The notes beneath the pieces are model-generated. The model ran no database searches, was not told the origin of the DNA, and saw only the letters and a list, made by a program, of their open reading frames with translations. Both the position numbers and the translations under genes were made by a program. A stretch of 64,000 bases of DNA from Escherichia coli (GTDB taxonomy: Bacteria > Pseudomonadota > Gammaproteobacteria > Enterobacterales > Enterobacteriaceae): the NCBI GenBank assembly GCA_025336685.1, contig GCA_025336685.1_4717.1. The stretch is one strand, 5' to 3'. Numbering within the stretch: the stretch's first letter is position 1; every line of letters begins with the position of its first letter. This document shows positions 18,078 to 34,357 of this stretch, one piece after another.

Positions 18078-18162
18078 GCTGACCTCATAGATGATCGTTG
18101 ATAGGAAAGAGACCTAATTCATACCATGGGAACCTCAAAAAAAAAACAAAAAATAGGAAAAC

Positions 18163-18190
18163 GGTGCTCATCCCTAAAAGGATGAGCACC
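18163..18190 (-). terminator. rho-independent terminator
   Basis: Perfect 11-bp stem GGTGCTCATCC/GGATGAGCACC, loop CTAAAA, followed on the minus strand by a long U-tract (plus-strand A-run 18137-18160). Confidence 0.8.
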
Positions 18191-18211
18191 GCGTACCGTT
18201 ATATCGAATGA

Positions 18212-18790
18212 TTAGTAAGGAATCAGATCGTTAAGCTTTTCTTCTTCGATGACAAAGAAGTTGTTCTGGTCGTCTAAATCTGTTAACAGGACTTGTCCGA
18301 CAGTAAAGCACGTGCCACCCTTCTTAGGCATCCATACCGGCTCATTTGTTACCTTATCGGGATACCATTTGAAACGATTGGTATCCAAGAAGAACGCTGC
18401 TTTGTTCACTTTATCCGTTGATCGGTAACTTACTAACGCTGGCCACTCAATCCAGGTATTTGTGCACGGCACATGTAAAGGATACCATGCACGCCAGCGT
18501 TTGCCTGGCTTGTTAGGATCAACCCAATACTCGGCAGTCAATACAGCATCTTTATAATGTTTCTGTATTAACATTTCGAGCACAAGCTCATTGCCTTTTG
18601 ATGAATCTAAAGTCACTTCAGCCATATAAAGAGATTTAGGTAATCCAGACTGTTTTGCGGGTGGTATTACGACACCGGTAACCAACGGTCTGCTCGGCTT
18701 ACGCTTCTGTTCTTTCCGATGTGTGTAAAGGAATAGCCCGATAGCTGCGGCAACAAGTATAATAAACAACACTACCTTAATCCAATTCAT
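18212..18790 (-). CDS. membrane-anchored hypothetical protein (192 aa)
   Basis: N-terminal hydrophobic helix VVLFIILVAAAIGLFLY; 4-nt overlap with the upstream gene. Confidence 0.45.
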   Translation of the reverse strand: MNWIKVVLFIILVAAAIGLFLYTHRKEQKRKPSRPLVTGVVIPPAKQSGLPKSLYMAEVTLDSSKGNELVLEMLIQKHYKDAVLTAEYWVDPNKPGKRWRAWYPLHVPCTNTWIEWPALVSYRSTDKVNKAAFFLDTNRFKWYPDKVTNEPVWMPKKGGTCFTVGQVLLTDLDDQNNFFVIEEEKLNDLIPY

Positions 18791-19536
18791 TCGTCAATAT
18801 CTCCTTCTACAAACAGAGTCAATTTGATTTCAGGATCATAGAACATAGTAATCACACCATCTTGCTCTACTGAACGTTGCGCTGTCCATATTAACTGTTC
18901 ATCCCGAATATCAAATTTATGCCGCTCATCACTCACCACGGCTTCCGCATCAACGTAATGGTAAACATCACCGAGAGGGTTCTCAATCCAACCACGTACC
19001 ATCAAACGTTCTTTTTGTTTACGTGTAAAGAAGCGATAAGGATCTTCGCACGTGCGCCATACATCCCCGTTCCCGCTGACCAGCTCATCATAAACTTTAG
19101 AGAGTTCGTCAGGTACCGGAATCAAAATGTTATCTTGATAGTTCGACCAGAAACGACGTACATCTTGGATCAGCTCATCGTCCTGCAGTTTGATTACCGC
19201 GTCACTATGATCGATTTTAACAGTATCGATATCAAGACGGGTAAACGGAAGAGCGTCTAGGTTTACCGCAACGACATCGATCCGATCATGATGAACATAA
19301 ACCCACCCATCAAACCACCGGTAACCATCAGCTTGATATAGCGTTGTGTGATATCTGACGACGCTGATGTCTTCGAACGATTCTAATAAGGCTTTAGCTG
19401 CTAAAAGCGGTGAAAAGTTCTTTGATTGTCCTGGTTTACGTATCTCTTCTTTGATGAACAATTTACCAAGCAGTGGGTGTTCGATAACAAAACCACAGGA
19501 AAGCATGATGCTTCCTTGATAGCGAGGTTCTTGCAT
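18787..19536 (-). CDS. hypothetical protein (249 aa)
   Basis: ORF with GAGGAA SD. Confidence 0.45.
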   Translation of the reverse strand: MQEPRYQGSIMLSCGFVIEHPLLGKLFIKEEIRKPGQSKNFSPLLAAKALLESFEDISVVRYHTTLYQADGYRWFDGWVYVHHDRIDVVAVNLDALPFTRLDIDTVKIDHSDAVIKLQDDELIQDVRRFWSNYQDNILIPVPDELSKVYDELVSGNGDVWRTCEDPYRFFTRKQKERLMVRGWIENPLGDVYHYVDAEAVVSDERHKFDIRDEQLIWTAQRSVEQDGVITMFYDPEIKLTLFVEGDIDE

Positions 19537-19654
19537 TTCCTATTCCTCAAACAAATGATTGTCTTTTACGCGACATGATTACAAGTACACAGGTTACTGA
19601 ATTTCTGTAAGAATTAATTTTCGTAAACTAAAAGAAAATGTATCCGTGTTTCCT

Positions 19655-19691
19655 GGTTCTTCCCCTCCACAGCCTCAGGAAGAGAAGAACC
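19655..19691 (-). terminator. terminator hairpin
   Basis: Stem GGTTCTTC/GAAGAACC around a CCTCC-containing loop, after the 82-aa gene; minus-strand RNA continues U-rich. Confidence 0.5.
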
Positions 19692-19711
19692 GTTTGCTAA
19701 GTTGTTATGTA

Positions 19712-19960
19712 TTAAAATGCATTGATTGGACTGTTCAATGCTTTATCACGGATTTGAATCGCCGCCAGCATTGCTTTCTGGTACGAATCGTAAGCATCAA
19801 CAGAAACAGTCGTATCAACCAATTCCTTTAATACTGATTCAGCCGCTTTTACGCGGACGCGGAACTTGGTGATTGCATTATCTTTGTTACGATAAACCGT
19901 GATGTGGTGCAGCGGTTGAACTTTGGTTTTAACGGATTTAGTTGCTTTGATCGTTTTCAT
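19712..19960 (-). CDS. hypothetical protein (82 aa)
   Basis: ORF flanked by terminators on both sides; AAGGAAA SD. Confidence 0.4.
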   Translation of the reverse strand: MKTIKATKSVKTKVQPLHHITVYRNKDNAITKFRVRVKAAESVLKELVDTTVSVDAYDSYQKAMLAAIQIRDKALNSPINAF

Positions 19961-20014
19961 GGTGATTTCCTTCTTTATTAGGATGATTACATTTAGTCAG
20001 TTTAACAGCATAAA

Positions 20015-20039
20015 CCCTTCCTGCTTTACGCAGGAAGGG
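20015..20039 (-). terminator. intrinsic terminator hairpin
   Basis: CCCTTCCTGC/GCAGGAAGGG perfect 10-bp stem, loop TTTAC, followed on the minus strand by UUUAUGCUG. Confidence 0.7.
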
Positions 20040-20053
20040 CATACGGATTTGTT

Positions 20054-20551
20054 TTACGCGTGTCGTCGTTTACCAAAGAAAATATGATTGTCTACCACGG
20101 TGATATTGGTAGCATGTTTTCTGAAATGTTTAGGGCGAAGATGTTTCGCGTTAAAGAATACGGCTCCTCGTGTTGGATCGGCTTTACGGTAAGCAACAAT
20201 GTCGTTATTGCGCAATGTTGCGACCTCTCGTGCTATCGCTCTTGCCCGCTCAAAAGCGGCACGATCGCGTATGACAATTCGTTGTTGTCTTGCCCAGGGG
20301 AATTGACCTCTTTGCAGTACGACGTCTCTGACGTTCGTAGGGAATCGGTAGTCCATAGATCGATTATGTATTAAAAACGCCACGGAGTATTGCCCTTTTA
20401 CAGATTCGCCTCTGGCTTCCATATACACAGCGCATGCGACGATCTCTTTCCGGCAATCGATTCTAGGTCCTGCGTTCACCGATGCTTGACTTAACGGTGC
20501 GATAAGCAACATAACAAGCCCTAAAACCAACGTGTGTAAAATACCTTGCAT
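20054..20551 (-). CDS. SleB-like cell-wall hydrolase with N-terminal signal/anchor (candidate endolysin)
   Basis: Hydrophobic N-terminus GILHTLVLGLVMLLIAPLSQA, then CAVYMEARGES...VAFLIHNR...VVLQRGQF resembling the SleB hydrolase family; start at Met18 with GAGG SD (ORF track extends to 20602). Confidence 0.6.
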   Translation of the reverse strand: MQGILHTLVLGLVMLLIAPLSQASVNAGPRIDCRKEIVACAVYMEARGESVKGQYSVAFLIHNRSMDYRFPTNVRDVVLQRGQFPWARQQRIVIRDRAAFERARAIAREVATLRNNDIVAYRKADPTRGAVFFNAKHLRPKHFRKHATNITVVDNHIFFGKRRHA

Positions 20552-20805
20552 CTTAATTAACCTCACGATAAGGTGCTGTCCACTGGCGTCTTGATAACGC
20601 ATCCCGTCTATCGGGTTATTCTATTCAGCGGGCAGCAGGTTAGCGTCAGATGTTTGCCCGACATCCACGACAGAAATAAACGGTACTGAAAATACGGTCT
20701 CCTCTGGTTTGGCAATAAACATAACGTTGGATAACAGAACCCATTTCCCGCATCCAACGCGGTAAAGGTGTACATCGTTTGAATTCATATAGTTTCTCAA
20801 AGATG

Positions 20806-21108
20806 TTAACCTCTACCGTCGAGCCACAAGTTGTATTTCTCACGAGCGTCGGGATCGCGATAGATGCGACGATACCTTAATTCCGGTAATAATCCGGTTC
20901 GCACTAACTCATCCGTTAACTTTCTACGACGTTCTACGCCGTTATGGATACGACGTAACTCACGAAAGTTAAGCGGTGTTTGTTTCATTAGAACCCCCAT
21001 TACGATCGGGCGATGATCAATTTCATACAGCGATAATACCCCACGTATTTCATCTAATACCCGCTCGCGATCGATTAGTATTCGATCATGATATTTTAAT
21101 TGTTCCAT
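20806..21108 (-). CDS. hypothetical protein (100 aa)
   Basis: ORF in the lysis-like cassette; no motif. Confidence 0.35.
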   Translation of the reverse strand: MEQLKYHDRILIDRERVLDEIRGVLSLYEIDHRPIVMGVLMKQTPLNFRELRRIHNGVERRRKLTDELVRTGLLPELRYRRIYRDPDAREKYNLWLDGRG

Positions 21109-21134
21109 AACAGTCGCTCTCGTTTCAGGGGGAG

Positions 21135-21338
21135 TTAAGTATTGTGTTTATTCCTACCTACATTCCTCAACAGTGTAACGATAACGAATACCGCCACCAT
21201 CAAGAAGACGAACCATAACCCGACATTAATTCGGGCGGCTGGTACATCCACCATAAGGAGCATCGTCCCACAAAACCCAAGGACTATCCATACTAACATC
21301 ATCCCTATCAACCCCCGCAGCAACTTAAGCCAGATCAT
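21135..21338 (-). CDS. small membrane protein (67 aa), holin candidate
   Basis: Two hydrophobic helices (LIGMMLVWIVLGFCGTMLLMV and LWFVFLMVAVFVIVTLL); start preceded by TAAGGAGGAG. Confidence 0.4.
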   Translation of the reverse strand: MIWLKLLRGLIGMMLVWIVLGFCGTMLLMVDVPAARINVGLWFVFLMVAVFVIVTLLRNVGRNKHNT

Positions 21339-21511
21339 AAACTCCTCCTTACTTTCTCTGATAAAGCGACGATTCTAATTTTAGAAACATCCCTAATGCG
21401 AATGCGAGTAATGACGCACGTACCCACATACCTCCTTGAAAACTGTTGTACAACATAAAGACCAGAGCGATGCCGCCCATATGCAGGCGGCACTTATCGA
21501 ACAATGTTGGT

Positions 21512-21721
21512 TTATACATAGGAGATTAAACGTTGAATGATTTTTACTTTGCCTTTGCCTGGACCTTTCTTGCGACGATTCAATAGACGGATACGGTTTC
21601 CAATTACGGAATCGCCGTCATAATCAGCACGCAACTGTGGTGGGAGAGCAAGATGTTCGCGATTGACACCCGGGTTGTTATAAAAACGATTGAAACTTAA
21701 AAGATGGTTAGTTGGAATCAT
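21512..21721 (-). CDS. small basic protein with RRKKGPGKGK motif
   Basis: Shares the motif (I/L)xxRxx(K/R)KKGPxKGK with three small ORFs at 39.9-40.4 kb; ORF-track start is TTG, first ATG at 21719-21721. Confidence 0.4.
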   Translation of the reverse strand: MIPTNHLLSFNRFYNNPGVNREHLALPPQLRADYDGDSVIGNRIRLLNRRKKGPGKGKVKIIQRLISYV

Positions 21722-21739
21722 TGTATTGACCTTATTCAA

Positions 21740-22090
21740 TTATTTACCAAGATAGAGGTATTCGCCACCCTGAATAACACCGGTTGATGGGTCAACCAGT
21801 ATGCGAACCCGCGCGTAGGTCTTGAAAGAGGGATTGAAAACTTCGAAGTCAGCCACTTTCAATTTCACGCTGGGGTTGGTAGGGTTTTTAACTCCTGGAA
21901 GTTCTTTCGGTAATCCGAAGTCGACTCCATATTCTTCAAGGTCTGCTGGTGTCATGCTCTCCATGGCCATGTAGATTGCTTTTGCTTTATCGTAAACCTC
22001 TGGGCTATCCAGCAACCCAGCCTGCGCTGAACCGACAACACTACCGAACAGAATAGCAACAGCAACAAACAATTTAGTTAACGTTTTCAT
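21740..22090 (-). CDS. secreted/periplasmic protein (116 aa)
   Basis: N-terminal signal peptide MKTLTKLFVAVAILFGSVVGSAQA. Confidence 0.5.
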   Translation of the reverse strand: MKTLTKLFVAVAILFGSVVGSAQAGLLDSPEVYDKAKAIYMAMESMTPADLEEYGVDFGLPKELPGVKNPTNPSVKLKVADFEVFNPSFKTYARVRILVDPSTGVIQGGEYLYLGK

Positions 22091-22126
22091 GATATTTTCC
22101 TCGAAAGTAAAATGTTACAATACCTA

Positions 22127-22549
22127 TTAACGTACGGCTGCTACGCTGTTAGCGCATGCCTGAATATCATCGGTATTTACGATGATGGTTTCGTTAAACG
22201 CACGAATGCGTGCGCGACGGGCTTCTTTAAGGCTGGCGATTGCGTTAGCAGCTTGATCTGTATTCGCAAGGCTAATAACCGGGATCAAACGCATGTCAGG
22301 ACTGCAGATATTCAATGCTTGGTATACACGGCCGTTGATTCCTACGGTATCAGACATCGGATAGTGCGCACGGCATTGAAATTGACCCATGACAACAAGC
22401 GAACGATCGGAGATACCAATCTGATAACGACCGTCTTCGCTGTAGGTGTAACAGTTATTCCCACGAGCCATCCAGTTAGCTTGTGCTTGTGCACTAACAA
22501 AAGCCAGGGTAGCGACGATAGCGAATGCGATATTTTTGAACAGTTTCAT
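22127..22549 (-). CDS. secreted/periplasmic protein (about 141 aa)
   Basis: Signal peptide MKLFKNIAFAIVATLAFVSAQAQA from the internal ATG at 22547-22549. Confidence 0.5.
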   Translation of the reverse strand: MKLFKNIAFAIVATLAFVSAQAQANWMARGNNCYTYSEDGRYQIGISDRSLVVMGQFQCRAHYPMSDTVGINGRVYQALNICSPDMRLIPVISLANTDQAANAIASLKEARRARIRAFNETIIVNTDDIQACANSVAAVR

Positions 22550-22585
22550 GATAAAGATCCTTATTGAAATAAAATCGGTATAAAG

Positions 22586-22601
22586 CCCCCCATTTAGGGG
22601 G
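22586..22601 (-). terminator. short terminator hairpin
   Basis: CCCCC-ATTTA-GGGGG followed on the minus strand by a U-rich run. Confidence 0.4.
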
Positions 22602-22607
22602 ACCTGA

Positions 22608-22925
22608 TTAGTTTGCACTTAAGAAATGACCCAGAACCGTTACGATTGGAAACAGTCCCGTAACCGTATTATCGCCAGAAAACATCATCTTTGAGTCGTT
22701 AACGGTGATGAAACGGATGTCGGTTGCAGACCCATCGATAGCGACAAAACGCATCGAGTTCGGTGGAAGATCCTCAACAACTTCCACGAGGTGTTCACGA
22801 TTTTCAAAGGCTTCTTTAACACGACGCATGAAACGAATCAATGTTCCTTCAGCGTCGGCTTCCAAATGACCTAAGATATCGCGATTATTACGAATAGCGA
22901 ATACAGCCATTTTAAACATACACAT
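22608..22925 (-). CDS. hypothetical protein (105 aa)
   Basis: ORF with AAGAGGA SD; conserved 17-mer and a 12-bp hairpin lie upstream. Confidence 0.45.
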   Translation of the reverse strand: MCMFKMAVFAIRNNRDILGHLEADAEGTLIRFMRRVKEAFENREHLVEVVEDLPPNSMRFVAIDGSATDIRFITVNDSKMMFSGDNTVTGLFPIVTVLGHFLSAN

Positions 22926-22998
22926 CTTGACATCCTCTTATATTGGATTGCTTGCTAATAATTCAAGGTGAAGCCAATGACTCCATTGCTTCACCTAG

Positions 22999-23015
22999 GT
23001 AATATAGCCGTGAAA
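22999..23015. promoter_or_regulatory. conserved 17-mer GTAATATAGCCGTGAAA, copy 1
   Basis: Exact copy of the 17-mer at 53145-53161; both lie within about 100 nt upstream of a leftward gene; ACTCACGT octamer nearby in both. Confidence 0.35.
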
Positions 23016-23029
23016 ATTAATGCATTGAC

Positions 23030-23986
23030 TCACGTCTTTGCTACATGGGGCTGAATCTCGTCGATGCGTTTAACCACAACCTCAGGGAAAAGTTGGAGGA
23101 TTTCATCAGGTGGTGTCGTACCTTCTGTCCAACGATAACGTTCAACCTTTTCGATGCGTGGACTCCCTCCGACATCAGCGATACGAAAGATACAGGCGAT
23201 ACCTAAATCGAAACATACGCTGTAAATATCTTCCGTGCCCCCTTTATCGGCAAGTATTTTCGCAAAATGCTCGTTATCAGGAAGAATGGCTAAATTACGG
23301 ATACACCAAACATTATCACCCATTTCTTCAAGTTTTGGGTAGGTTAAAGTGTGTCCGTAGCATGTTAACCATCGATGATTTTCTAGGCGGAAGTCCTTAT
23401 CTCCTGGCCGATAACCCAGTATCACCTCGGTGTAGAAGAGATTAGGCATATTGAGCAGTTCTCTAATCGTTGGACCGGTATGCTCCCAGAGACAGATTTG
23501 TTTACGGTCTATATCGTAATCTGTGACGTTACTCACCTCCCAACTTATCGTAAGTTCATCGACAACGTGCCAACCTAAAGCATGTTCACCACCAAGCAGA
23601 TTAACAATAGCTGCTATCTCGTGCTTGTCAAATACCCCCAAATTCTGCGGTGGTTGCATCGTACGTAATGGCTCCCATAACGCACTGTAATCATAGAGCA
23701 AATGACGACACAGACTTTTTGTTAAGGGGGTATGTTCAGTAAACAGTGGGAGAATCACTGTATCCAACAATGGACGTAATGGATGATTGTCGGGTGGCAA
23801 CGAAGCGTATAGCCGACTTTCCTTTTTAGGAATGTCGTAACCAAACCCGTAACGCTCCGAAATGAGAGCAATCAACACTTTTGCTATGCGATTACGCAGC
23901 ATGCGATGGATATCATCCGTGTAACAGAATTTCGGTCTATTACCAGAAACGAAGGTGAAGTATCTGGGCGTTAGCGCAGCCATCAT
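23030..23986 (-). CDS. hypothetical protein (318 aa)
   Basis: ORF, no motif. Confidence 0.5.
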   Translation of the reverse strand: MMAALTPRYFTFVSGNRPKFCYTDDIHRMLRNRIAKVLIALISERYGFGYDIPKKESRLYASLPPDNHPLRPLLDTVILPLFTEHTPLTKSLCRHLLYDYSALWEPLRTMQPPQNLGVFDKHEIAAIVNLLGGEHALGWHVVDELTISWEVSNVTDYDIDRKQICLWEHTGPTIRELLNMPNLFYTEVILGYRPGDKDFRLENHRWLTCYGHTLTYPKLEEMGDNVWCIRNLAILPDNEHFAKILADKGGTEDIYSVCFDLGIACIFRIADVGGSPRIEKVERYRWTEGTTPPDEILQLFPEVVVKRIDEIQPHVAKT

Positions 23987-23993
23987 CTTTCCC

Positions 23994-24440
23994 TCAATCT
24001 AAATAGTACGTGATGGAAAGGTCTTTTCCATCGAACACGATATCCGTGCAGTCATGGACCGTCGGTAATACCATTTTGGCGGCTACTGGAACGTACGCCT
24101 GCAACTCCATGAAGTTATCCATACGGAATGCACGACGCACCATCAGCGGCGTTAGTGTAAACGTTACGCTGACGTTACCACCTGAGGTCAAGTGCATTAT
24201 CGCATGCCCATGATCGCACCAACAATGGTTTTCGATCCATCCGGTGTAAATCAGAATATTTTTATCTTCGTCGTAATAAGCAATGCCAGTCTGCTTTAAA
24301 CGGCTGGTAAACCGAGAGGCTTGCTCGTAGCCCGCACGCAACATTCGAGCAACCAAACGGGTATTGTTAGCGATTCGATTCTGTTCGTTGGTTTTTGTGG
24401 TTTTGAAAAGTTCGATACGTTCTGCTTTTGTAATTTGCAT
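23994..24440 (-). CDS. hypothetical protein (148 aa)
   Basis: ORF, no motif. Confidence 0.45.
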   Translation of the reverse strand: MQITKAERIELFKTTKTNEQNRIANNTRLVARMLRAGYEQASRFTSRLKQTGIAYYDEDKNILIYTGWIENHCWCDHGHAIMHLTSGGNVSVTFTLTPLMVRRAFRMDNFMELQAYVPVAAKMVLPTVHDCTDIVFDGKDLSITYYLD

Positions 24441-24445
24441 GATTA

Positions 24446-24859
24446 CTAACCTAATGAATTGTGTTTAAATAATTGGATGTATGGGGTACCGAATAAAGGA
24501 CTGTATGAATGTATTCGGTTCTCCTCTGATTCGTAATACTCGATAGGCCACGATATTGGTTTAGGTAGACGATCTAATGCTTGCAACACAGCGAGTTTAA
24601 CGCTATTACTTTCGATCGGATACGGAAGTACCGTTGACGAACAGAACACACGTGTTCGATGTAAATAAATGAGATGCTGTTGTAGCTTAGACAAACGCCT
24701 ACGCTTGATTAAGAAACTGGCTACGCGACAATCGGGGTGATCGTAGTGATAGCGCATGGTGTCGAAATAAACCTGTTCTCCTTTAACAATGAGGTATTTA
24801 ATCGCGTGTATGAATGAATAACGACGTAGTTCTCCATCAGCCAACATAACACGGATCAT
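24446..24859 (-). CDS. hypothetical protein (137 aa)
   Basis: ORF, no motif. Confidence 0.45.
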   Translation of the reverse strand: MIRVMLADGELRRYSFIHAIKYLIVKGEQVYFDTMRYHYDHPDCRVASFLIKRRRLSKLQQHLIYLHRTRVFCSSTVLPYPIESNSVKLAVLQALDRLPKPISWPIEYYESEENRIHSYSPLFGTPYIQLFKHNSLG

Positions 24860-25458
24860 TACTTAGGCTCCAGAATCGGTCCGAACAACCAGAAAGTCAG
24901 ACGTTGGTAGATCTGTTCGATGACAGCGGATTCTGTTTGCTCTTCCCACGATTTCCCTTTCTTATACTTTATTTCTGGCGGAATATCGCCAGTGTAAACG
25001 TACCCCGTTGAGAAATCCCACACCAATCGTTTACCGAAAGCGGGTAAGAACACCTCTTCGAATCTGAACGCTTTCGAATTCCAATGCAGCAATTGATCGG
25101 ATTCAACACGTAATGCTTTATTACGTTTGCTCGGCATGTTTCCGAAGTACTGAACGATGGCTGACTTCATAACCCGATCAGCGAAGTCTTTGGCTTCAGC
25201 CTCATCGAGGGGAGGCAGGTGATGTGACAGATTTAGCTTGCGTTGTTCGATATCGATCTTACGCATTGCTTTAATTAAATCGCCGGGGGTAATTTTACCC
25301 TTATGTCCTTCCTGCCGATGTATGAAGCATCCCTGGAATAACACGCAAAGCTCTTGAGGCGCGGTACTTTCCATTCGTCCATAAGCAACGATCACCGAAC
25401 GACGACGGTCGATAACTTCACGGATAAACCGCGGCTCAGTAATACTCACCACTGTCAT
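24859..25458 (-). CDS. hypothetical protein (199 aa)
   Basis: ORF, no motif. Confidence 0.45.
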   Translation of the reverse strand: MTVVSITEPRFIREVIDRRRSVIVAYGRMESTAPQELCVLFQGCFIHRQEGHKGKITPGDLIKAMRKIDIEQRKLNLSHHLPPLDEAEAKDFADRVMKSAIVQYFGNMPSKRNKALRVESDQLLHWNSKAFRFEEVFLPAFGKRLVWDFSTGYVYTGDIPPEIKYKKGKSWEEQTESAVIEQIYQRLTFWLFGPILEPK

Positions 25459-25502
25459 TTAAAGCCCTCTTTATCTTTTTCCATTTCTCTTTACATAACC
25501 AA

Positions 25503-26228
25503 TTAAGACGTCGCCATCTTATCTTCCAGAGACTTCTTCGGTAAACCATGGATAACTCCTTCCGGGGTTAAGAACACACAGTCCGGATTCTGCGTTCGTG
25601 AGCGGTCGTCTGGACTGTTCAACGAGAACAGCAACGCAGAAATACCTTTTGTCCGATTTAATGCCGCTACGATCACGTCAAGCTGTCGCAGCGCATCCGA
25701 CACGGTTCGATGAGGAACAATACGTGACTGTTTGAAGCTGGCTAACCGCCAAGTCTCGAACAAACAACGCAGTTTAAACACGTCGGACGGAATAGCAGTA
25801 GATCCCTGTTCGATAACCTCAACACGATCAGCTTCAGGATAACCTACAGCAACCGCACTAAAGTGTCGTACCCCATTATGAAAATCATCGATAGATGCTT
25901 CGGCGTATTTACATACCGTGCCAGAAACGACCATCACTTTTGCTAAACCGCGATAATTGATCGTCAATGGAATACGAAATACGCGCAAAGCATGTTCTGG
26001 ATTTAATGAGACGTCGTTAACCTTTGTTGCGGTCAACTTACCACGCTCGTAACGTGCGGTGAACGGCAGCCCGTCATAAACGGGATTAATCACAACGCCC
26101 CCTGGGGAGGCGTTAGCGTTAAGATGGACATTAAGCCAATCGGATACTTCCTGTCTACTAGTTACGATTAACATAAAACGGTCCTCCATTTCTTTTCCTT
26201 CATTCATGGCGCATATCTTCCAAATCAT
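25503..26228 (-). CDS. hypothetical protein (241 aa)
   Basis: ORF, no motif. Confidence 0.45.
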   Translation of the reverse strand: MIWKICAMNEGKEMEDRFMLIVTSRQEVSDWLNVHLNANASPGGVVINPVYDGLPFTARYERGKLTATKVNDVSLNPEHALRVFRIPLTINYRGLAKVMVVSGTVCKYAEASIDDFHNGVRHFSAVAVGYPEADRVEVIEQGSTAIPSDVFKLRCLFETWRLASFKQSRIVPHRTVSDALRQLDVIVAALNRTKGISALLFSLNSPDDRSRTQNPDCVFLTPEGVIHGLPKKSLEDKMATS

Positions 26229-26850
26229 CCTTTTGTTTTGTAAATTCTGATTGCTTGCGATAAACCTCCCATGCGTCGTATAAACCGTAAAAGTTCAAAT
26301 GGCGTGCATTTAAGTTAACGGTGAATTCTTCCACAGAGGCAAAATCCGAACGAAGCATCGAATGGAAGGTGTCATCTCCAGTGCAGCCTCCGTATCCTTC
26401 ACCCTGATAGACCAAAAGCTGGTGAGGTTGGATACGTGCGGCAACCAATGCAGCTTGTGGTTCGTCGTAAGGCGGCCATGACAGTAGAATAACGTCGTAC
26501 TGTGAAAGATCGATGTTTGTGTAGTCGGCTTGCTGAATGTCCTCGATAAACGGGTGGGGATGTAATTCCGTATCGTAAGCGGTAATGTCCTCAACACCAA
26601 GTTTACGCAACACATAGGTCAGGTAACCCGTCCCACAACCCAGGTCAGCGACACGTCGCCCGTAACAGATGTTCGCTAACTGGAGCGCAGTATCCATGGT
26701 TAACAACGACCATCCAACGCGTTGTGTGTATTCTTCACGTACATCCCATTGTTGATGGAACGTCATGGGTTCTATGATATTAGCAAGCTGCTGGTACGGC
26801 AACGGCATTTTGGTTTCGCCTTGCGTGAGTAAAGCAATAACATCGTTCAT
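26200..26850 (-). CDS. class I SAM-dependent methyltransferase
   Basis: Motif I VADLGCGTGYLT, acidic residue after strand 2 (AYDTE), and a PPY tetrad (LLSWPPY) after strand 4; start MNDVIALL with AGGAAA SD. Confidence 0.6.
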   Translation of the reverse strand: MNDVIALLTQGETKMPLPYQQLANIIEPMTFHQQWDVREEYTQRVGWSLLTMDTALQLANICYGRRVADLGCGTGYLTYVLRKLGVEDITAYDTELHPHPFIEDIQQADYTNIDLSQYDVILLSWPPYDEPQAALVAARIQPHQLLVYQGEGYGGCTGDDTFHSMLRSDFASVEEFTVNLNARHLNFYGLYDAWEVYRKQSEFTKQKDDLEDMRHE

Positions 26851-26873
26851 TTTGTTTCCTTTTATCAGCATAA

Positions 26874-26894
26874 ACCCTCCCATACCGGGAGGGT
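26874..26894 (-). terminator. intrinsic terminator hairpin
   Basis: ACCCTCCC/GGGAGGGT stem, 5-nt loop, followed on the minus strand by UUUAUGCUG. Confidence 0.6.
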
Positions 26895-26898
26895 ACGA

Positions 26899-27327
26899 TT
26901 ATTCATTTTCAATAACTTTAAGATTCGGTGTGCCGAGCGTTTTCTTCACCAACGCCTCAGCAATGCGTTTCTCGATGAAATCGGTCGAATTGCTTCCGTC
27001 TATCGTACGCATATCACCACGGAAATTGTTGAAGACCATAAACAAATCACACCCGTCGATAGGTATCGCAAGATCATAACTGACTTGTGATGCGGTGAAA
27101 TGGACGCCAACGACAACGGCGGGAACGAATTCAACCGCCGTGTTATCCCCTTCTTCTCCGGTTCCGAATGGAAGTTCAACACGATCGCCGATAGAGAATT
27201 GAGTGACATCATTAATTGCGTTCGTTAATGCAATTCGTTGCATGTTAGCGATATTTTCATTATTCGCATCACAAGGTAGATCCAGGACTTCTTCCAATGT
27301 GAAGAATTTACGATCGAACCAGCTCAT
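26899..27327 (-). CDS. hypothetical protein (142 aa)
   Basis: ORF, no motif. Confidence 0.45.
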   Translation of the reverse strand: MSWFDRKFFTLEEVLDLPCDANNENIANMQRIALTNAINDVTQFSIGDRVELPFGTGEEGDNTAVEFVPAVVVGVHFTASQVSYDLAIPIDGCDLFMVFNNFRGDMRTIDGSNSTDFIEKRIAEALVKKTLGTPNLKVIENE

Positions 27328-27328
27328 G

Positions 27329-27862
27329 TTAATCTCCTTTGTGTTTTACGGACGATGTTAACCACGATGATCTTACAGTGAAACCCTCGGATTCATAGAA
27401 CGCCTGGGCTTCATCGTTATCGGCACGAACATCCAGGCCGATAGAATGACCACCACACTGGTAAGCGATGTTACGTGCTTCATTCATCAAGGCGTGACCG
27501 ATACCGCGCCCGCGATATTCGGGTTTTACAATAATCGATGTAACGTCATGAATGCCCATATGGCTCTCTGCGCTCACTTCCAAGAGGCCCACCGGCGTCG
27601 AAACGATAGCGTCGATCATAACGACCAGCATTGCGGCGTCCGGTAAACGCTTTTCTAATTCTAAGGAATCATATTCACGTTTTAAATCGGGAATATTCCC
27701 AAACATAAACGTGGTGCCCCACGCCTCCGATTCCGCATCATCGAGAATACGGTACAGTTCACGAATCTGTTGTTTATGTGGATAAAGATGTGGATCAGCG
27801 ACCGTCGAGGTGCTAATGCAAAAGAACGGTCGTTCGTTAATAACCAGTGTTTTGATGCTCAT
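27329..27862 (-). CDS. GNAT-family N-acetyltransferase
   Basis: Acetyl-CoA binding motif RGRGIGHALM and C-terminal AQAFYESEGF. Confidence 0.7.
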   Translation of the reverse strand: MSIKTLVINERPFFCISTSTVADPHLYPHKQQIRELYRILDDAESEAWGTTFMFGNIPDLKREYDSLELEKRLPDAAMLVVMIDAIVSTPVGLLEVSAESHMGIHDVTSIIVKPEYRGRGIGHALMNEARNIAYQCGGHSIGLDVRADNDEAQAFYESEGFTVRSSWLTSSVKHKGD

Positions 27863-28365
27863 GCTAAAATTCCTTCATTACCTAACAGTCGATTACGATG
27901 ACGTCGGTACATTTGACAAAGTGTTGTAATTTGATAAAGTTTGTTGTAACGTACTTCGATACGTTTTTGCACCTCTTTCCACGGAAGTTTATCGTATTGC
28001 CGATAACGATGGATTTCATTCAACATCCGAAGACGCGTAGGATCGGTATTCTTTATTGTTACGAGCTTCACGCGTTGGTATCCGCGCTGCAACCCCGATT
28101 CCGAATACGTAATGCCGAACTCATCCTGAATGATAGTAATGATCTCCCGCCATCGGCGCTTCTCACCGTCACGTAAATGGACAACCCGCGATAAGATATC
28201 GTTCCGATTACGATGACTCAGTTTAATGTTAAGCATTGAAGCAATCGCGCTGATTGCTCTCTGACTCCGTCCTAACGCATCACCGATCTCTTTCGATGTC
28301 ATGACGCCAGCGTTTCGGCGTATGAATGCGATTTCGGTTGTTGTGTATTCTTTACCTGCTGCCAT
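27859..28365 (-). CDS. Myb/SANT-like DNA-binding protein, paralog 6 (168 aa)
   Basis: Repeat pattern (Y/W)xxxExxxL...EIGDALGRSxxAIS and a third Trp-spaced repeat; member of the six-gene tandem family. Confidence 0.5.
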   Translation of the reverse strand: MAAGKEYTTTEIAFIRRNAGVMTSKEIGDALGRSQRAISAIASMLNIKLSHRNRNDILSRVVHLRDGEKRRWREIITIIQDEFGITYSESGLQRGYQRVKLVTIKNTDPTRLRMLNEIHRYRQYDKLPWKEVQKRIEVRYNKLYQITTLCQMYRRHRNRLLGNEGILA

Positions 28366-28829
28366 TTTTTACCACGTGTGTTATAATAGTAACGCTGACA
28401 AAGATGTGTGTGATGGTACTCCCGTTTGAACTCGACGTTGATAATGCGAGTAACTTCTCTCCATCTGACCCCTTCATGTCGCAGTGCTGTGATACGGTCT
28501 GAAATTTTGCACCATTCATCTGGGTCGTATCGTCGCAGTTTATGGCGTCGTATTACGGAGGCGACACTCGCTCTCGATCGGCCAAGATGGTTTGACAGTT
28601 GTTTAACCGAGTATCTGTGGATATTGTCGCGAATATAGGAAATCTCGTTGTTCGTATATGCCTCATTGGTTCTTGACGAAGGGAACAACATATACAACTT
28701 ATTCTTAATCGCGCTTTCTGTGCGTTGAAATACCGTAGTCAAATCACTAACTGGTGGTCTGGGTATCTGATCCGCGTAACTCTCAAGGCGTGAGAGTTCC
28801 TCATCTGTCCAGCGACGATACTTGCGCAT
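28299..28829 (-). CDS. Myb/SANT-like DNA-binding protein, paralog 5
   Basis: RRWTDEELSRL...LSNHLGRSRASVASV; start MRKYRRW with AAAGGAG SD (ORF track extends to 28913). Confidence 0.5.
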   Translation of the reverse strand: MRKYRRWTDEELSRLESYADQIPRPPVSDLTTVFQRTESAIKNKLYMLFPSSRTNEAYTNNEISYIRDNIHRYSVKQLSNHLGRSRASVASVIRRHKLRRYDPDEWCKISDRITALRHEGVRWREVTRIINVEFKREYHHTHLCQRYYYNTRGKKWQQVKNTQQPKSHSYAETLAS

Positions 28830-29304
28830 GGGCAACTCCTTTGTTTTTCGTGTAATAGCACCAACGTTGATACAACGCATGTTTATTCGTTGTAATCCCA
28901 AATTTAACAACAACGTCGTATGTGATAATATTCCAATTTTGGGTAACGTTAAGTCGTTCCGCGATAAACGCGATAATCGCTTCCCGTTCTTGCTTGGTTA
29001 ACGCACGACGAATTCCATTAAGTCGTATAAACTGACGAACCGAGTCATACGAACGGTTTAAATCATACGCAATCTCTCGCAATGATTTTTGTTTGATTAC
29101 AGACTTGATGTACGTTCGTTCCGCTTCCGTATACGGCCGATGCTTCTGACGTTGACGTATTCCCAAGCGTCCTAGACGCGCGTCGACGCTAGCGCGTGTT
29201 CGTCCTGCCTGTTGCGCGATTTCATCAATCGTCAGCGACGTGTTCAAATACAGATGCGTAACATCTTTCAGCTCGTCGTCACGCCATGGTTGAGATCGTC
29301 TCAT
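28801..29304 (-). CDS. Myb/SANT-like DNA-binding protein, paralog 4
   Basis: QPWRDDELKDV...IAQQAGRTRASVDARL...LREIAYDLNRSYDSV; AGAGGAG SD. Confidence 0.5.
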   Translation of the reverse strand: MRRSQPWRDDELKDVTHLYLNTSLTIDEIAQQAGRTRASVDARLGRLGIRQRQKHRPYTEAERTYIKSVIKQKSLREIAYDLNRSYDSVRQFIRLNGIRRALTKQEREAIIAFIAERLNVTQNWNIITYDVVVKFGITTNKHALYQRWCYYTKNKGVAHAQVSSLDR

Positions 29305-29782
29305 CTTGGACTCCTCTTTTCTTTCTATGATGCCACCAACGCTGATAGACAGCTTGCTTCGTCCGCGTTATACCAAAATGCGCATTAACCCGTTCAGCGA
29401 TATGGTACCAATCCTGCGTTTCTTCTAACAACGCATCAACGAAAGCTATGAAGATCTTAGTATCATCCTCGCTTAACCGCTTGAAACCATGGCGGTGTGC
29501 TATTGTTCGAATACTGTTTGGATCTCTGTTTAAATCGCGTGCGAGCTGTTTGTAACTTTTGTGCTTACAGTGTAGTCTGATATGTTCCAATTCGTCGGCG
29601 CTGAAACGTTTATGTGGTTTACGGCGTTCAACGTTTAAGTGCATCAACCTCGATTTAATTGCACCGTACGTTGTTTCCATGATTTCTGCGATTTCACGGA
29701 TTTTTAATTTCGGGTGACGGTAGTACAATTTCAACAACTGTTCATCGTACTCACGATTCCATCGTCGTACTGGAGGTTTCAC
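29279..29782 (-). CDS. Myb/SANT-like DNA-binding protein, paralog 3
   Basis: RRWNREYDEQLL...IAEIMETTYGAI...LARDLNRDPNSI; GTG start 2 nt after the upstream stop. Confidence 0.45.
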   Translation of the reverse strand: MKPPVRRWNREYDEQLLKLYYRHPKLKIREIAEIMETTYGAIKSRLMHLNVERRKPHKRFSADELEHIRLHCKHKSYKQLARDLNRDPNSIRTIAHRHGFKRLSEDDTKIFIAFVDALLEETQDWYHIAERVNAHFGITRTKQAVYQRWWHHRKKRGVQDETISTMA

Positions 29783-29784
29783 AA

Positions 29785-30264
29785 CTAGATTTCTCCTGTT
29801 CTACGCGTTTTTAATGCTTGAGTGTAGTAGAGTGTATGAACACCACTTAACGTGTAATGGGTGTTAAATTCGTTATTGATGATATTCTGTATTCTCTCCC
29901 AGGTTCTGTTCTCTTTTCTAAGCGCATGTATTCGGTGATAAATCATCTCTCGACGTTGCGCTTTGCAAGCAACAATACCGTAACGGTAGCAGAGTTTAGC
30001 GATTGCGTCCACGCTACGATTGAACATTACCGCGGCTTCTTTCACGCTGTGCGTCTTGAGATAATCGGCTAACATCACGCGTTCTTCGAAACAACAATAG
30101 CGATGACGCGACATGAGTTTCCAGCGCTTGCGATTACGGTTAATTCGACCTTGAACCGAACCTTCTGTTCGACCAAGCCGTTCCGCAATCTCTTGCATCG
30201 GTATACCGTTTCGGTACAGGGTAATCAACATCGCATCTTCTTCGGGTGTCCAGTCCTTGACCAT
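29785..30264 (-). CDS. Myb/SANT-like DNA-binding protein, paralog 2
   Basis: WTPEEDAMLITLYRNGIPMQEIAERLGRTEGSVQGRINRNRKRW: near-canonical Myb repeat with three spaced Trp. Confidence 0.55.
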   Translation of the reverse strand: MVKDWTPEEDAMLITLYRNGIPMQEIAERLGRTEGSVQGRINRNRKRWKLMSRHRYCCFEERVMLADYLKTHSVKEAAVMFNRSVDAIAKLCYRYGIVACKAQRREMIYHRIHALRKENRTWERIQNIINNEFNTHYTLSGVHTLYYTQALKTRRTGEI

Positions 30265-30276
30265 AGTACCACCCCA

Positions 30277-32940
<2,664 letters not shown>

Positions 32941-32999
32941 ATTGTCGTTTCCTCCATACGAAACCAAAAAATTGTCAAAATGTACATCGGCATAACACC

Positions 33000-33027
33000 C
33001 GTGTCCGCCCGCGATGGGAGGGACACG
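33000..33027 (-). terminator. terminator-like hairpin
   Basis: CGTGTCC...GGACACG outer stem with inner CCC/GGG pairing, between the 210-aa gene and the membrane-protein gene. Confidence 0.45.
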
Positions 33028-33047
33028 AGCAATACGCTTTTATTTCT

Positions 33048-33680
33048 TCAAGACTTCACAACACATTCGACTTCGTCGTTCATATAGGCTTCGTATAAAG
33101 ACAGCACTTCCTTCATTTTAATTTCAGGTAGCGCGACGGAACGAATCGCTTTCAGGATATTCCGTGTTTGATGGTGTTTAGCCTTCGCCTCACGCAGTTT
33201 ACAGAATTGACGGATACAGGTATTAACTTTACCGCCTTCCGCACGTTCGAGGGCGACATGCAGTTTCAGATCCAGTAATACTTCCGTGAGTTCCTGGGTG
33301 GCAGGATCGTTACGAATAAGTCGCACCGTCCGTTCATCCGGATTCAGCATCGTAAGGTACTGAAGCTTGATCTGCTCGGGTACGGGTTTCGTGTTCATCA
33401 TGATGGTGTCAAACTGTTCCTTAACATCCAACTCATTGAACACATAACGTTCGATGTGTACGACGTGCGCTTTTCCTGACTCACCGTAAACCGCCATCGC
33501 ACGATAGTCATCGAACAACACGACATACATCAGATCTTGTTCCGGTCCGGTGGTACCATCGATGAGCTTCGGTGCATACTCCTTAAAGAAGCCGCAACGA
33601 ACCGCTTCATCCGGCATGATCGTCCACGCTTTAACGGGTTGCTTTACGAGTTCCATGTAACACCTCATCAAGATTATCAC
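33048..33680 (-). CDS. hypothetical protein (210 aa)
   Basis: ORF, no motif. Confidence 0.45.
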   Translation of the reverse strand: MIILMRCYMELVKQPVKAWTIMPDEAVRCGFFKEYAPKLIDGTTGPEQDLMYVVLFDDYRAMAVYGESGKAHVVHIERYVFNELDVKEQFDTIMMNTKPVPEQIKLQYLTMLNPDERTVRLIRNDPATQELTEVLLDLKLHVALERAEGGKVNTCIRQFCKLREAKAKHHQTRNILKAIRSVALPEIKMKEVLSLYEAYMNDEVECVVKS

Positions 33681-33951
33681 TTACACCTGGCGGTACCACG
33701 ATACCGGTACGAATCACAGCAGCAACTTCCTGCATGCCTTTACCCTTCAACGCATATGTTTCATGTACCACATTACGTCGAGTCGTTAATCCAACAAATT
33801 TACATACCACCATGTTGTTTTCTGAAAGATAAGCGGTGTCGAGTTCACCGTGCAACAATTCTTTTTCTTTGGTATCAATGCCTAATAACGCAATTTGATA
33901 AGCAGAAAGTTTCCAATAACGCATGTTATCACCCAAACTGTTAAGAAGCAT
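33631..33951 (-). CDS. hypothetical protein (106 aa)
   Basis: ORF overlapping its neighbours by 50 and 11 nt; start uncertain. Confidence 0.35.
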   Translation of the reverse strand: MLLNSLGDNMRYWKLSAYQIALLGIDTKEKELLHGELDTAYLSENNMVVCKFVGLTTRRNVVHETYALKGKGMQEVAAVIRTGIVVPPGVSDNLDEVLHGTRKATR

Positions 33952-34357
33952 CCTGTTTAATGTTGATGACTATTTCCGTTCGAACCGGATTGGTCAGTAC
34001 GGCCTGCATGCGTTCAAGCATCATTGGGTTATCCGTAACTACCACATCGGCGTAACACATTGGATGACTTTCGAACGCTTCGGTGTCGCTTACTAACAGA
34101 ACACCCATCACATTTACGTATTGCGGTATGCGACCACGAATGCGTTGCCACATGTCTTGAGTAAGGTCTTCGCTTTCTAACGCAACCACGACAACAGGAC
34201 TGATATTTACCGGGAAACGCGGATGTACCGTGCGGCGAAACGTTATCCAGCTTTCGATGTGGGATAATGCAAGTTCGAGAGAACAACATTTTGGAGAAAT
34301 CTGTATGTTTATTTGCTGAATCAATGAAAGGGGGTTTTGTACAGTCTCTTCAGCCAT
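33941..34357 (-). CDS. hypothetical protein (138 aa)
   Basis: ORF, no motif. Confidence 0.4.
   Translation of the reverse strand: MAEETVQNPLSLIQQINIQISPKCCSLELALSHIESWITFRRTVHPRFPVNISPVVVVALESEDLTQDMWQRIRGRIPQYVNVMGVLLVSDTEAFESHPMCYADVVVTDNPMMLERMQAVLTNPVRTEIVINIKQDAS

What the first reader, a model, noticed from the sequence alone, without database searches (positions are those of the whole stretch)
22999..23015. Exact 17-mer GTAATATAGCCGTGAAA repeated at two intergenic sites, with an ACTCACGT octamer nearby
The 17-mer occurs at 22999-23015 and 53145-53161, each within about 100 nt upstream of a leftward gene start (22925 and 53088). Both sites also contain ACTCACGT and a short hairpin. Neither site has a convincing sigma-70 -35 element at the right spacing. 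I could not scan the whole window exhaustively for further copies. This may be a phage-specific promoter or operator.
Basis: seen in the sequence. Interest (0 to 1): 0.5.

Follow-up and report, generated by a model that had tools for sequence, protein, structure and literature searches.

The report
Early promoters of a Goslar-like jumbo phage
The repeated 17-mer is the core of two early-gene promoters of a nucleus-forming jumbo phage, most likely read by the RNA polymerase the phage injects with its DNA; this is a known kind of element, here in a lineage where I found no published description of it.

Summary
GTAATATAGCCGTGAAA occurs exactly twice. The shared block is longer than reported: on the minus strand it reads TTTCACGGCTATATTAC-N4-GTG, with 0.02 copies expected by chance.

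The window is about 91-93% identical to Escherichia phage Goslar (Chimalliviridae). On the coding strand the motif has the architecture published for phiKZ-type early promoters: a -30 box, a T-rich -20 box, TATATTAC at about -10, and GTGA at the start site.

Goslar carries 12 strong copies plus one weaker -10/start-site match and one sub-threshold candidate. All lie on the gene strand. All but one lie in or against intergenic DNA, and one sits in front of the chimallin gene.

I re-read published Goslar RNA-seq from infections arrested at the early vesicle stage. Every block of genes that stays expressed begins at one of these sites. Window site 2 (53137-53174) heads a roughly 35-kb early block that ends at a strong terminator (18161-18192). 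Site 1 (22991-23028) is an internal booster.

ACTCACGT is coincidental as an octamer. No sigma-70 promoter fits either site.

This is a new member of a known kind, of modest interest. Many copies are followed by a stem-loop at the predicted RNA 5' end; that enrichment is only suggestive.

The parts
22991..23028 (-). Site 1: full early-promoter motif TCAATGCATTAATTTTCACGGCTATATTACCTAGGTGA, with a -30 box, TTTCAC at -20, CTATATTAC at -10 and GTGA at the start region. The predicted start is at or near G22992.
   Evidence: Scores 49.6 bits with the Goslar-derived matrix. Aligns with the other copies. The promoter core is conserved in Goslar and in an IMG/VR relative, with a single C/T change just after the 17-mer, while the upstream flank carries more changes and an indel.
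22967..22995 (-). Stem-loop at the predicted 5' end of the site-1 transcript. It has an 8-bp perfect stem, GGTGAAGC/GCTTCACC, extendable to about 12 bp with one bulge. It starts 3 nt before the predicted start site.
   Evidence: Folding gives -8.8 kcal/mol. The stem arms are invariant in three genomes while the loop differs at several positions.
22608..22925 (-). First gene downstream of site 1: 105 aa, no Pfam family, homologue of Goslar_00105. It has an AAGAGGA ribosome-binding site and a predicted 5' UTR of about 67 nt.
   Evidence: ORF list, Pfam scan, Goslar annotation.
53137..53174 (-). Site 2: full early-promoter motif CCAACACAAATCCTTTCACGGCTATATTACTTACGTGA. The predicted start is at or near G53138. 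It lies in a divergent intergenic region opposite a late helicase gene.
   Evidence: Scores 48.8 bits. Fully conserved in Goslar and in UViG_3300011560.
52402..53088 (-). First gene downstream of site 2: an HD-domain phosphohydrolase of 228 aa, homologue of Goslar_00159. The predicted 5' UTR is about 50 nt.
   Evidence: Pfam HD domain, E = 9.8e-8. Goslar annotation.
18212..53138 (-). Inferred early transcription block of about 35 kb: the homologues of Goslar gp159 down to gp94, nearly all on the - strand. Site 2 heads it and site 1 reinforces it.
   Evidence: Window-to-Goslar mapping. In Goslar, gp159 to gp94 stay expressed under chimallin knockdown (log2FC -0.6 to +1.4), while the flanking genes gp160 and gp93 fall to about -5.
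18161..18192 (-). Intrinsic terminator that closes the early block: a 14-bp stem with 8 G-C pairs and a 4-nt loop, followed by a long T-run. It sits directly after the gp94 homologue.
   Evidence: It coincides with the drop from early gp94 to late gp93 in the Goslar RNA-seq.
61969..62006 (-). Possible degenerate third copy, GCAGTGGAGATATATTAACACCTACATAACCTAAGGGA. It lies in the intergenic region upstream of the homologue of Goslar_00165, annotated as a beta-like RNA polymerase subunit and taken here to be a non-virion subunit because it is expressed early.
   Evidence: Scores 12.8 bits here and 16.4 bits in Goslar, both within the range of shuffles. It resembles the weak site upstream of Goslar_00210, which does sit at a late-to-early boundary. 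The expression step at gp166 to gp165 is only small. This part is uncertain.

Best explanation
The two 17-mers are the -20/-10 core of two early promoters of a Goslar-like chimallivirus, a nucleus-forming jumbo phage.

Read on the minus strand, each site is TTAAT.CAA (about -30), TTTCAC (about -20), CTATATTAC (about -10) and GTGA (the start region).

By homology with phiKZ-type phages, these promoters are read by the multisubunit virion RNA polymerase. That enzyme is injected with the DNA and works inside the early-infection vesicle, independently of host sigma-70 polymerase.

Site 2 starts leftward transcription of a roughly 35-kb block of early genes. The block encodes an HD hydrolase, a metallophosphoesterase, thymidylate synthase, DNA ligase, an exonuclease and many small ORFs. 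It ends at an intrinsic terminator at 18161-18192. Site 1 lies about 30 kb downstream inside that block and re-initiates transcription for its last 12 or so genes.

Shown: the motif, its genome-wide placement and orientation, its similarity to the published consensus, and its coincidence with the boundaries of early gene blocks in Goslar RNA-seq.

Inferred: the exact start nucleotide, and that the virion polymerase is the enzyme.
For: 1. The window is 87-93% identical to Goslar across 92.3-153.6 kb of that genome.

2. The published consensus motifs are phiKZ TATATTAC, 201phi2-1 TTAWTAVAA_HYWTTTRARR_BTATATTACDWHDGTG and EL WTTTYAAACCTACATTATY (PMC7058600). The phiKZ early motif is described as an extended -10 box plus a T-rich element upstream of -19 (PMC8244752). 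In 201phi2-1, -10, -20 and -30 are conserved and the AT-rich box lies about 10 bp before the start site (PMC11512511). The alignment of copies here shows the same layout.

3. In Goslar, 9 copies match the 17-mer with 3 or fewer mismatches against 0.65 expected. The weight matrix finds 12 sites of at least 25.9 bits, against a shuffle maximum of 19.7. The short pattern TAYATWAC-N5-TG finds exactly 13 sites. All are on the - strand and upstream of - strand genes. Eleven are in or abutting intergenic DNA, one overlaps the last 18 nt of the upstream gene, and one lies within the annotated 5' end of Goslar_00047.

4. One copy lies 66 nt upstream of the chimallin gene (Pfam PF25677, E = 4.8e-25). 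It is 29/39 identical to the phiKZ chimallin (PHIKZ054) promoter. PHIKZ054 has a mapped primary start site with the early motif. The Goslar matrix ranks the phiKZ TATATTAC sites as its top hits in the first 50 kb of phiKZ.

5. Goslar RNA-seq under chimallin knockdown resembles wild-type infection at 5 min (bioRxiv 10.1101/2023.09.20.558163). The first gene after each of the 12 strong sites has log2FC +0.49 to +1.32. Eleven of the 12 reach at least 0.84, against 21% of all genes (binomial p = 3e-7). The mean step across a site is 4.0 log2 units (permutation p < 1e-5). Eleven gene boundaries show a step of at least 3 log2 units. Nine of these are late-to-early transitions: eight coincide with strong sites and the ninth with the weak gp210 site. 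The other two (gp58, gp246) lie between two late genes.

6. Across site 1, log2FC jumps from 0.19 (gp106) to 1.08 (gp105). Across site 2, it goes from -5.1 (gp160) to +1.1 (gp159).

7. No sigma-70-like promoter is found at either site.
Against: No transcription start has been mapped for this phage or for Goslar at these two sites. The start is placed by analogy only.

The RNA-seq comes from Goslar, not from the window phage.

Knockdown cells still make the non-virion polymerase, so resistance to knockdown does not prove which polymerase acts.

Promoter-specific transcription by a purified chimallivirus virion polymerase is not reported in the papers I could read.

Some early islands in Goslar (gp183, gp199, gp145) have no detected motif, so this motif may not be the only early signal.
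Confidence: 0.88

Rival explanations
1. The motif is a promoter for the non-virion (middle/late) phage RNA polymerase rather than the virion polymerase.
For: Chimallin-knockdown cells translate early genes, including the non-virion polymerase subunits, so resistance to knockdown does not formally separate the two enzymes. In 201phi2-1 some genes expected to be early have middle promoters.
Against: The motif matches the early consensus, not the phiKZ middle motif (TACT near -22 after an A-rich run) or the late motif (TATG at the start). The knockdown transcriptome matches wild-type infection at 5 min. Late genes next to the sites are 10- to 100-fold down.
Confidence: 0.06
2. The motif is an operator: a binding site for a phage or host regulator that overlaps some other promoter.
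For: It is a long, nearly invariant sequence repeated at several regulatory regions. That would also fit a DNA-binding regulator.
Against: The 17-mer and the 38-nt block have no dyad symmetry, as the sequence shows directly. All 13 copies in Goslar have the same orientation relative to the downstream gene and a fixed distance to a conserved GTGA. No alternative promoter is detectable nearby. The architecture equals that of mapped phiKZ early promoters.
Confidence: 0.04
3. The motif is a host sigma-70 promoter that uses TATATT as its -10 hexamer.
For: TATATT matches TATAAT at 5 of 6 positions. The host is E. coli.
Against: There is no -35-like hexamer at 16-18 nt and no TG extension. The scan finds 0 sites at both loci. 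Chimallivirus infection is reported to be independent of host polymerase and insensitive to rifampicin (PMC13282480). The DNA sits inside a vesicle or shell that excludes host proteins.
Confidence: 0.02
4. The two copies are a chance repeat or a remnant of duplicated or mobile DNA with no function.
For: Only two copies occur in 64 kb. One unrelated IMG/VR contig (L011) also carries the exact 17-mer in a different context.
Against: 0.02 copies of the 24-nt pattern are expected by chance. The flanks of the two copies are unrelated, so this is not a duplication. Both copies are perfectly conserved in relatives that are about 91% identical overall. Further copies lie at other promoter positions genome-wide.
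Confidence: 0.005

Closest known systems
phiKZ early promoters (28-32 sites, attributed to the virion RNA polymerase)
   Same: The -10 element TATATTAC is identical. There is a T-rich -20 element at the same 9-nt offset: TTTAAACAG in phiKZ against TTTCACGRC here. Both have a -30 box (ATTCAAAC against TTAATCCAAC) and an nTGA start region. Both sit in intergenic DNA ahead of early operons. The chimallin-gene promoters of the two phages are 29/39 identical.
   Different: The -20 box here is richer in G+C. There are about 13 sites per 237 kb against about 30 per 280 kb in phiKZ. Start sites are unmapped here. Half of the Goslar copies are followed by a perfect stem of at least 5 bp that starts at -3 to +1. 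That was not seen in 7 phiKZ promoters.
Predicted or mapped early promoters of 201phi2-1, OBP, N1M2 and EL
   Same: The 201phi2-1 consensus TTAWTAVAA..TTTRARR.BTATATTACDWHDGTG lines up element by element with TTAATCCAAC..TTTCACGGCTATATTACYTNNGTG. The CTACATTAC variant seen in Goslar matches EL's CCTACATTAT.
   Different: Individual positions differ by lineage, for example ATATTAT in OBP and N1M2. The hosts differ (Pseudomonas and Klebsiella against E. coli).
Early promoters of Bacillus jumbo phage AR9 (virion multisubunit polymerase)
   Same: The strategy is the same. An injected multisubunit phage polymerase reads a roughly 10-nt AT-rich element centred near -10 (PMC7598289).
   Different: The consensus is different, the genome contains uracil, and the phage is not a chimallivirus.
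Coliphage N4 early promoters (injected virion polymerase)
   Same: Early genes are transcribed by a polymerase carried in the virion from phage-specific promoters that host polymerase does not read. This rests on established knowledge and on the abstract of PMC4496689.
   Different: N4 uses a single-subunit T7-like enzyme that recognises a DNA hairpin upstream of the start site. Here the conserved element is a linear AT-rich box, and the hairpin, where present, lies downstream of the start.

Membership tests
Chimalliviridae (phiKZ-type) early promoter | Highly conserved AT-rich element (TATATTAC or a close variant) centred about 10 bp upstream of the start site | tested here: met
   CTATATTAC is exact at both window sites. 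TAYATTAC is present in all 12 strong Goslar copies and in the weaker gp210 site. Its position relative to the start site is inferred from the conserved GTGA, not measured.
Chimalliviridae (phiKZ-type) early promoter | T-rich element near -20 and conserved positions near -30 | tested here: met
   TTTCAC lies 3 nt before CTATATTAC, and a TTAAT.CAA-like box lies about 10 nt further upstream. phiKZ copies show the same offsets.
Chimalliviridae (phiKZ-type) early promoter | Copies lie in intergenic DNA, co-oriented with the operons they precede | tested here: met
   2 of 2 in the window. In Goslar all 13 are on the gene strand: 11 are in or abutting intergenic DNA, one overlaps the last 18 nt of the upstream gene, and one lies in the probably mis-annotated 5' end of Goslar_00047.
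Chimalliviridae (phiKZ-type) early promoter | Downstream genes are expressed early, before and independently of the phage nucleus | tested here: met
   Re-reading of Goslar RNA-seq under chimallin knockdown. The first genes after the sites have log2FC +0.5 to +1.3. All 9 late-to-early boundaries carry a site. Binomial p = 3e-7. The data are for the orthologous sites in Goslar, not for the window phage itself.
Chimalliviridae (phiKZ-type) early promoter | The phage packages a multisubunit virion RNA polymerase | not testable with these tools
   The virion polymerase genes lie outside the 64-kb window. For Goslar, five virion polymerase subunits were detected in virions by mass spectrometry (bioRxiv 10.64898/2026.04.21.720040).
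Chimalliviridae (phiKZ-type) early promoter | Primary 5' ends map just downstream of the motif, and transcription is insensitive to rifampicin | not testable with these tools
   No start-site data for these loci were available. The Goslar study shows chmA start-site sequences only in a figure.
Bacterial sigma-70 promoter | TTGACA-like and TATAAT-like hexamers 16-18 nt apart | tested here: not met
   0 sites at 22850-23100 and 0 at 53030-53350, against 0.6 and 1.1 in shuffles.
Operator or repressor-binding site | Dyad symmetry or direct half-site repeats; function independent of orientation | tested here: not met
   The 38-nt block contains no inverted or direct repeat, as the sequence shows directly. 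Orientation is strict in 13 of 13 copies.
N4-type hairpin promoter | Short DNA hairpin (5-7 bp stem, 3-nt loop) upstream of the start site as the recognition element | tested here: not met
   Windows covering the motif (-36 to -5) hold no consistent helix: 0-4 of 12 sites have a stem of at least 5 bp, and at most 2 have a stem of at least 6 bp. The only peak is at the start site, extending downstream.

The most novel reading that the evidence does not exclude
The promoter may be coupled to a stem-loop that begins at the first transcribed nucleotides. A perfect helix of at least 5 bp starts at -3 to +1 in 6 of 12 Goslar copies, and imperfect helices occur in at least three more. Window site 1 has an 8-12 bp stem whose arms are invariant while the loop drifts.

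If functional, early transcripts made by the injected polymerase would carry a built-in 5'-terminal hairpin. That hairpin might protect them from 5'-end-dependent decay, or mark them for exit from the early-infection vesicle.

A second open reading is that the two upstream sub-classes set different timing or strength. They are TTAATCCAAC..TTTCACGRC and TTGAAAAAAATTTSAGG; the latter is shared with the chimallin promoter of phiKZ.
Probability: 0.2. Interest if true: 0.5.

Novelty: new member of a known kind. Interest (0 to 1): 0.3.

Why it matters
Early promoters of nucleus-forming jumbo phages are known from Pseudomonas phages. How the injected multisubunit polymerase recognises them, with no known sigma-like factor, is still open.

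This analysis defines a small and very clean promoter set in an E. coli-infecting lineage, with 12 strong copies and one weaker match per genome and two in this window. The set accounts for every block of genes that stays on when infection is arrested at the early vesicle stage.

That gives three things. It provides annotation that the Goslar GenBank record lacks; that record lists only terminators. It provides a compact sequence for in vitro work on the virion polymerase in a tractable host. It also provides defined promoter and terminator parts for engineering.

It does not change the current picture of chimallivirus transcription.

Tried and rejected
1. ACTCACGT as a second shared element. 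Rejected: 3 copies against 2.5 expected, opposite sides of the 17-mer, and not conserved at site 1 in Goslar.

2. A third TATATTAC at 63527-63534(-). Rejected: it overlaps the end of ORF 63537-63947, has no -20 box or GTG, and TATATTAC alone is at chance frequency.

3. Sigma-70 promoters at both sites. None found.

4. Rfam families across the whole window. None at gathering score.

5. Exact 17-mer in IMG/VR. Only Goslar itself, two Goslar-like contigs and one unrelated contig (L011) whose context lacks the -30 box and the GTG. I took that one as a chance hit.

6. Overall folding energy of the first 40 transcribed nt. Not different from random 40-mers of the genome, p = 0.24.

7. Hairpin starting at the predicted start site. 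Only the position-specific test was significant: p = 3.5e-4 for perfect stems of at least 5 bp, post hoc. Among 31 tested windows the peak at the start site is the highest but not overwhelming. The same test on 7 phiKZ early promoters was negative.

8. Literature search for the 17-mer, its reverse complement or a Goslar promoter description. Nothing found in the library.

9. Supplementary start-site tables for phiKZ and 201phi2-1, and the Ceyssens 2014 paper. Not held.

Full report
**What is in the sequence.**
GTAATATAGCCGTGAAA occurs at 22999-23015 and 53145-53161 and nowhere else in the window, even with three mismatches allowed; 0.18 copies are expected. Both copies lie in intergenic DNA, 74 and 57 nt upstream of leftward ORFs that start at 22925 and 53088. 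The informative strand is therefore the minus strand. There both sites read TTTCACGGCTATATTAC-N4-GTG, a 24-nt pattern expected 0.02 times. ACTCACGT is present at both sites, but the window holds 3 copies against 2.5 expected. It lies upstream of the motif at site 1 and over the GTG at site 2. At site 1 it is not conserved in the closest relative. I treat it as coincidental. Neither region contains a sigma-70-type hexamer pair.

**Where the window comes from.**
The window is 87-93% identical over almost its whole length to Escherichia phage vB_EcoM_Goslar, positions 92.3-153.6 kb. Goslar is a 237-kb nucleus-forming jumbo phage of the Chimalliviridae. These phages carry two multisubunit RNA polymerases. 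[quoted passage not shown] The other is made after infection (PMC7598289; PMC13282480). The Goslar GenBank record annotates terminators but no promoters.

**Match to a known promoter class.**
Published consensus sequences for early promoters of this group are:
- phiKZ: TATATTAC
[quoted passage not shown] - OBP and N1M2...TTTCARRYAKATATTAT...GTG (PMC7058600)

The phiKZ motif is described as an extended -10 box plus a T-rich element upstream of -19, found at 32 mapped start sites (PMC8244752). In 201phi2-1 the -10, -20 and -30 regions are conserved and the AT-rich box lies about 10 bp before the start site (PMC11512511). The alignment of all copies found here gives TTAAT.CAA-N4/5-TTTCACGRCTAYATTACYTNNGTGA, the same layout element by element.

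In the first 50 kb of phiKZ the TATATTAC sites show the same spacing of -30, -20 and -10 boxes and an nTGA start region. A weight matrix built only from Goslar sites ranks them as its top hits there. The best hit is the promoter of the chimallin gene PHIKZ054, which is 29/39 identical to the Goslar chimallin promoter.

**Genome-wide distribution in Goslar.**
With three or fewer mismatches the 17-mer has 9 copies against 0.65 expected. The 38-nt matrix finds 12 sites of at least 25.9 bits, against a shuffle maximum of 19.7. It also finds two weak candidates, upstream of Goslar_00165 and Goslar_00210. The short pattern TAYATWAC-N5-TG finds exactly 13 sites.

All are on the minus strand, which carries most genes. 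Each lies directly upstream of a minus-strand gene: gp4, 21, 40, 47, 75, 105, 159, 175, 182, 189, 210, 221 and 236. Goslar_00189 is chimallin (Pfam PF25677, E = 4.8e-25). In the window the matrix scores the two reported sites at 49.6 and 48.8 bits, and nothing else exceeds the shuffles. In IMG/VR the exact 17-mer occurs only in Goslar, in two Goslar-like contigs, and once in an unrelated context.

**Independent expression evidence.**
Armbruster et al. (bioRxiv 10.1101/2023.09.20.558163) blocked chimallin synthesis. That arrests Goslar at the early-infection vesicle, and the resulting transcriptome matches wild-type infection at 5 min. Their Supplementary Table 2 lists reads per gene. I entered the replicate-A log2 fold changes in genome order. 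Genes fall into blocks that stay on (about 0 to +1.3) and blocks that drop 10- to 100-fold.

- Eleven gene boundaries show a step of at least 3 log2 units. Nine are late-to-early transitions, at gp4, 21, 40, 47, 75, 159, 210, 221 and 236. The other two (gp58, gp246) lie between two late genes.
- Each of the nine carries a motif site. Eight are strong sites; the ninth is the weak gp210 variant.
- The other four strong sites (gp105, 175, 182 and chmA) sit inside or at the head of blocks that stay on. At each of them the ratio steps up.
- The first gene after the 12 strong sites has a mean log2FC of +1.02. Eleven of the 12 reach at least 0.84, against 21% of all genes (binomial p = 3e-7).
- The mean step across a site is 4.0 log2 units (permutation p < 1e-5).

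**The two window sites.**
For the two window sites the orthologous values are these. gp160 is -5.1 and gp159 is +1.1 across site 2. gp106 is +0.19 and gp105 is +1.08 across site 1. In the knockdown, read density roughly doubles across site 1.

**Anatomy in the window.**
Site 2 (53137-53174, minus strand) lies in a divergent intergenic region opposite a late helicase gene. It heads the homologues of gp159 down to gp94 (53138 to 18212). The block ends at a strong intrinsic terminator: a 14-bp stem followed by a long T-run at 18161-18192. That is exactly where the Goslar data switch to late genes. Site 1 (22991-23028) abuts the stop codon of the upstream gene, with no terminator before it. It therefore acts as an internal booster for the last 12 or so genes. 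Both leaders carry an AAGAGG ribosome-binding site. The predicted 5' UTRs are about 67 and 50 nt.

**Limits.**
The start nucleotide is inferred from the conserved GTGA and from the published position of the motif. The identity of the polymerase is inferred by homology. Knockdown cells also make the non-virion enzyme, so the RNA-seq does not by itself tell the two apart. The phiKZ middle and late motifs are quite different, which is why I rate that rival low. The expression data are from Goslar, not from the window phage, although both sites are perfectly conserved.

**The hairpins.**
At site 1 the transcript would begin with GGTGAAGC...GCTTCACC (22967-22995). Its arms are invariant in three genomes while the loop differs. 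Across the 12 Goslar sites, 6 have a perfect helix of at least 5 bp starting at -3 to +1, against 9% of random positions (p = 3.5e-4). Three have helices of at least 8 bp. The test was devised after I saw the pattern. Among 31 positional windows the peak at the start site is the highest but not dramatic. Total folding energy is not unusual. Seven phiKZ promoters show no such enrichment. Site 2 has no such hairpin. I report this as suggestive only.

**Verdict.**
The element belongs to a known class. The Goslar-type consensus and its one-to-one relation to the early gene blocks do not appear in the literature I could search. I file it as a new member of a known kind, of modest interest.

Noticed in passing
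window 40811-42937 (insertion about 41111-42187): The thymidylate synthase gene is split relative to Goslar by a roughly 1.1-kb insertion. The insertion carries a GIY-YIG + NUMOD3 + I-TevI-type DNA-binding homing endonuclease ORF (41240-42094, minus strand). This resembles the T4 td intron with I-TevI. No group I intron model matched, even at E <= 1.
   Followed up: partly
window 53240-53270: A GC-rich 9-bp hairpin with a T-run on the + strand lies 35 nt before the late helicase gene. Goslar annotates it as a terminator although no + strand gene precedes it. Its 11-nt loop is reverse-complemented between the window and Goslar/UViG_3300011560 (all but one base), while the stems are identical. 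This is a hairpin-loop inversion.
   Followed up: partly
window 11842-13614: A 590-aa minus-strand ORF with DUF7941 and DUF285 domains lies in a stretch (11854-13600) with no nucleotide match in Goslar. DUF7941 proteins are described as virion filament proteins in Goslar, so this may be a host-range cassette swap.
   Followed up: partly
window 61969-62006; Goslar 151619-151656 and 187624-187661: A divergent motif variant, TGGAGAT-N-AACCTACATWACCT, lies upstream of the Goslar_00165 homologue (annotated as a beta-like RNA polymerase subunit) and of Goslar_00210. The latter sits at a clear late-to-early expression boundary although it scores only 11 bits. A second, weaker promoter flavour may therefore exist.
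   Followed up: partly
Goslar L002 49584-49772: The annotated start of Goslar_00047 (49772) lies upstream of the predicted promoter and start site (about 49718). The start codon, or the ORF itself, is probably mis-annotated.
   Followed up: no
Goslar promoter set; phiKZ L019: There are two upstream sub-classes. TTAATCCAAC..TTTCACGRC occurs at 8 sites, including both window sites. TTGAAAAAAATTTSAGG occurs at the chimallin gene and at gp40, gp221 and gp236. Both flavours are also visible among phiKZ early promoters.
   Followed up: partly
window 63490-63520 (minus strand): A hairpin, CCTCCTCCTACCC...GGGAGGAGG, lies right after ORF 63537-63947. It has the same CCTCC/GGAGG stem type as the one at 53240-53270 and may be a lineage-specific terminator motif.
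   Followed up: no
Goslar genes gp145, gp183, gp199 (outside or partly inside the window's range): These genes are small islands of strong resistance to chimallin knockdown (log2FC about +1.1 to +1.4) with no detectable copy of the motif upstream. Not every early start is explained by this motif.
   Followed up: no
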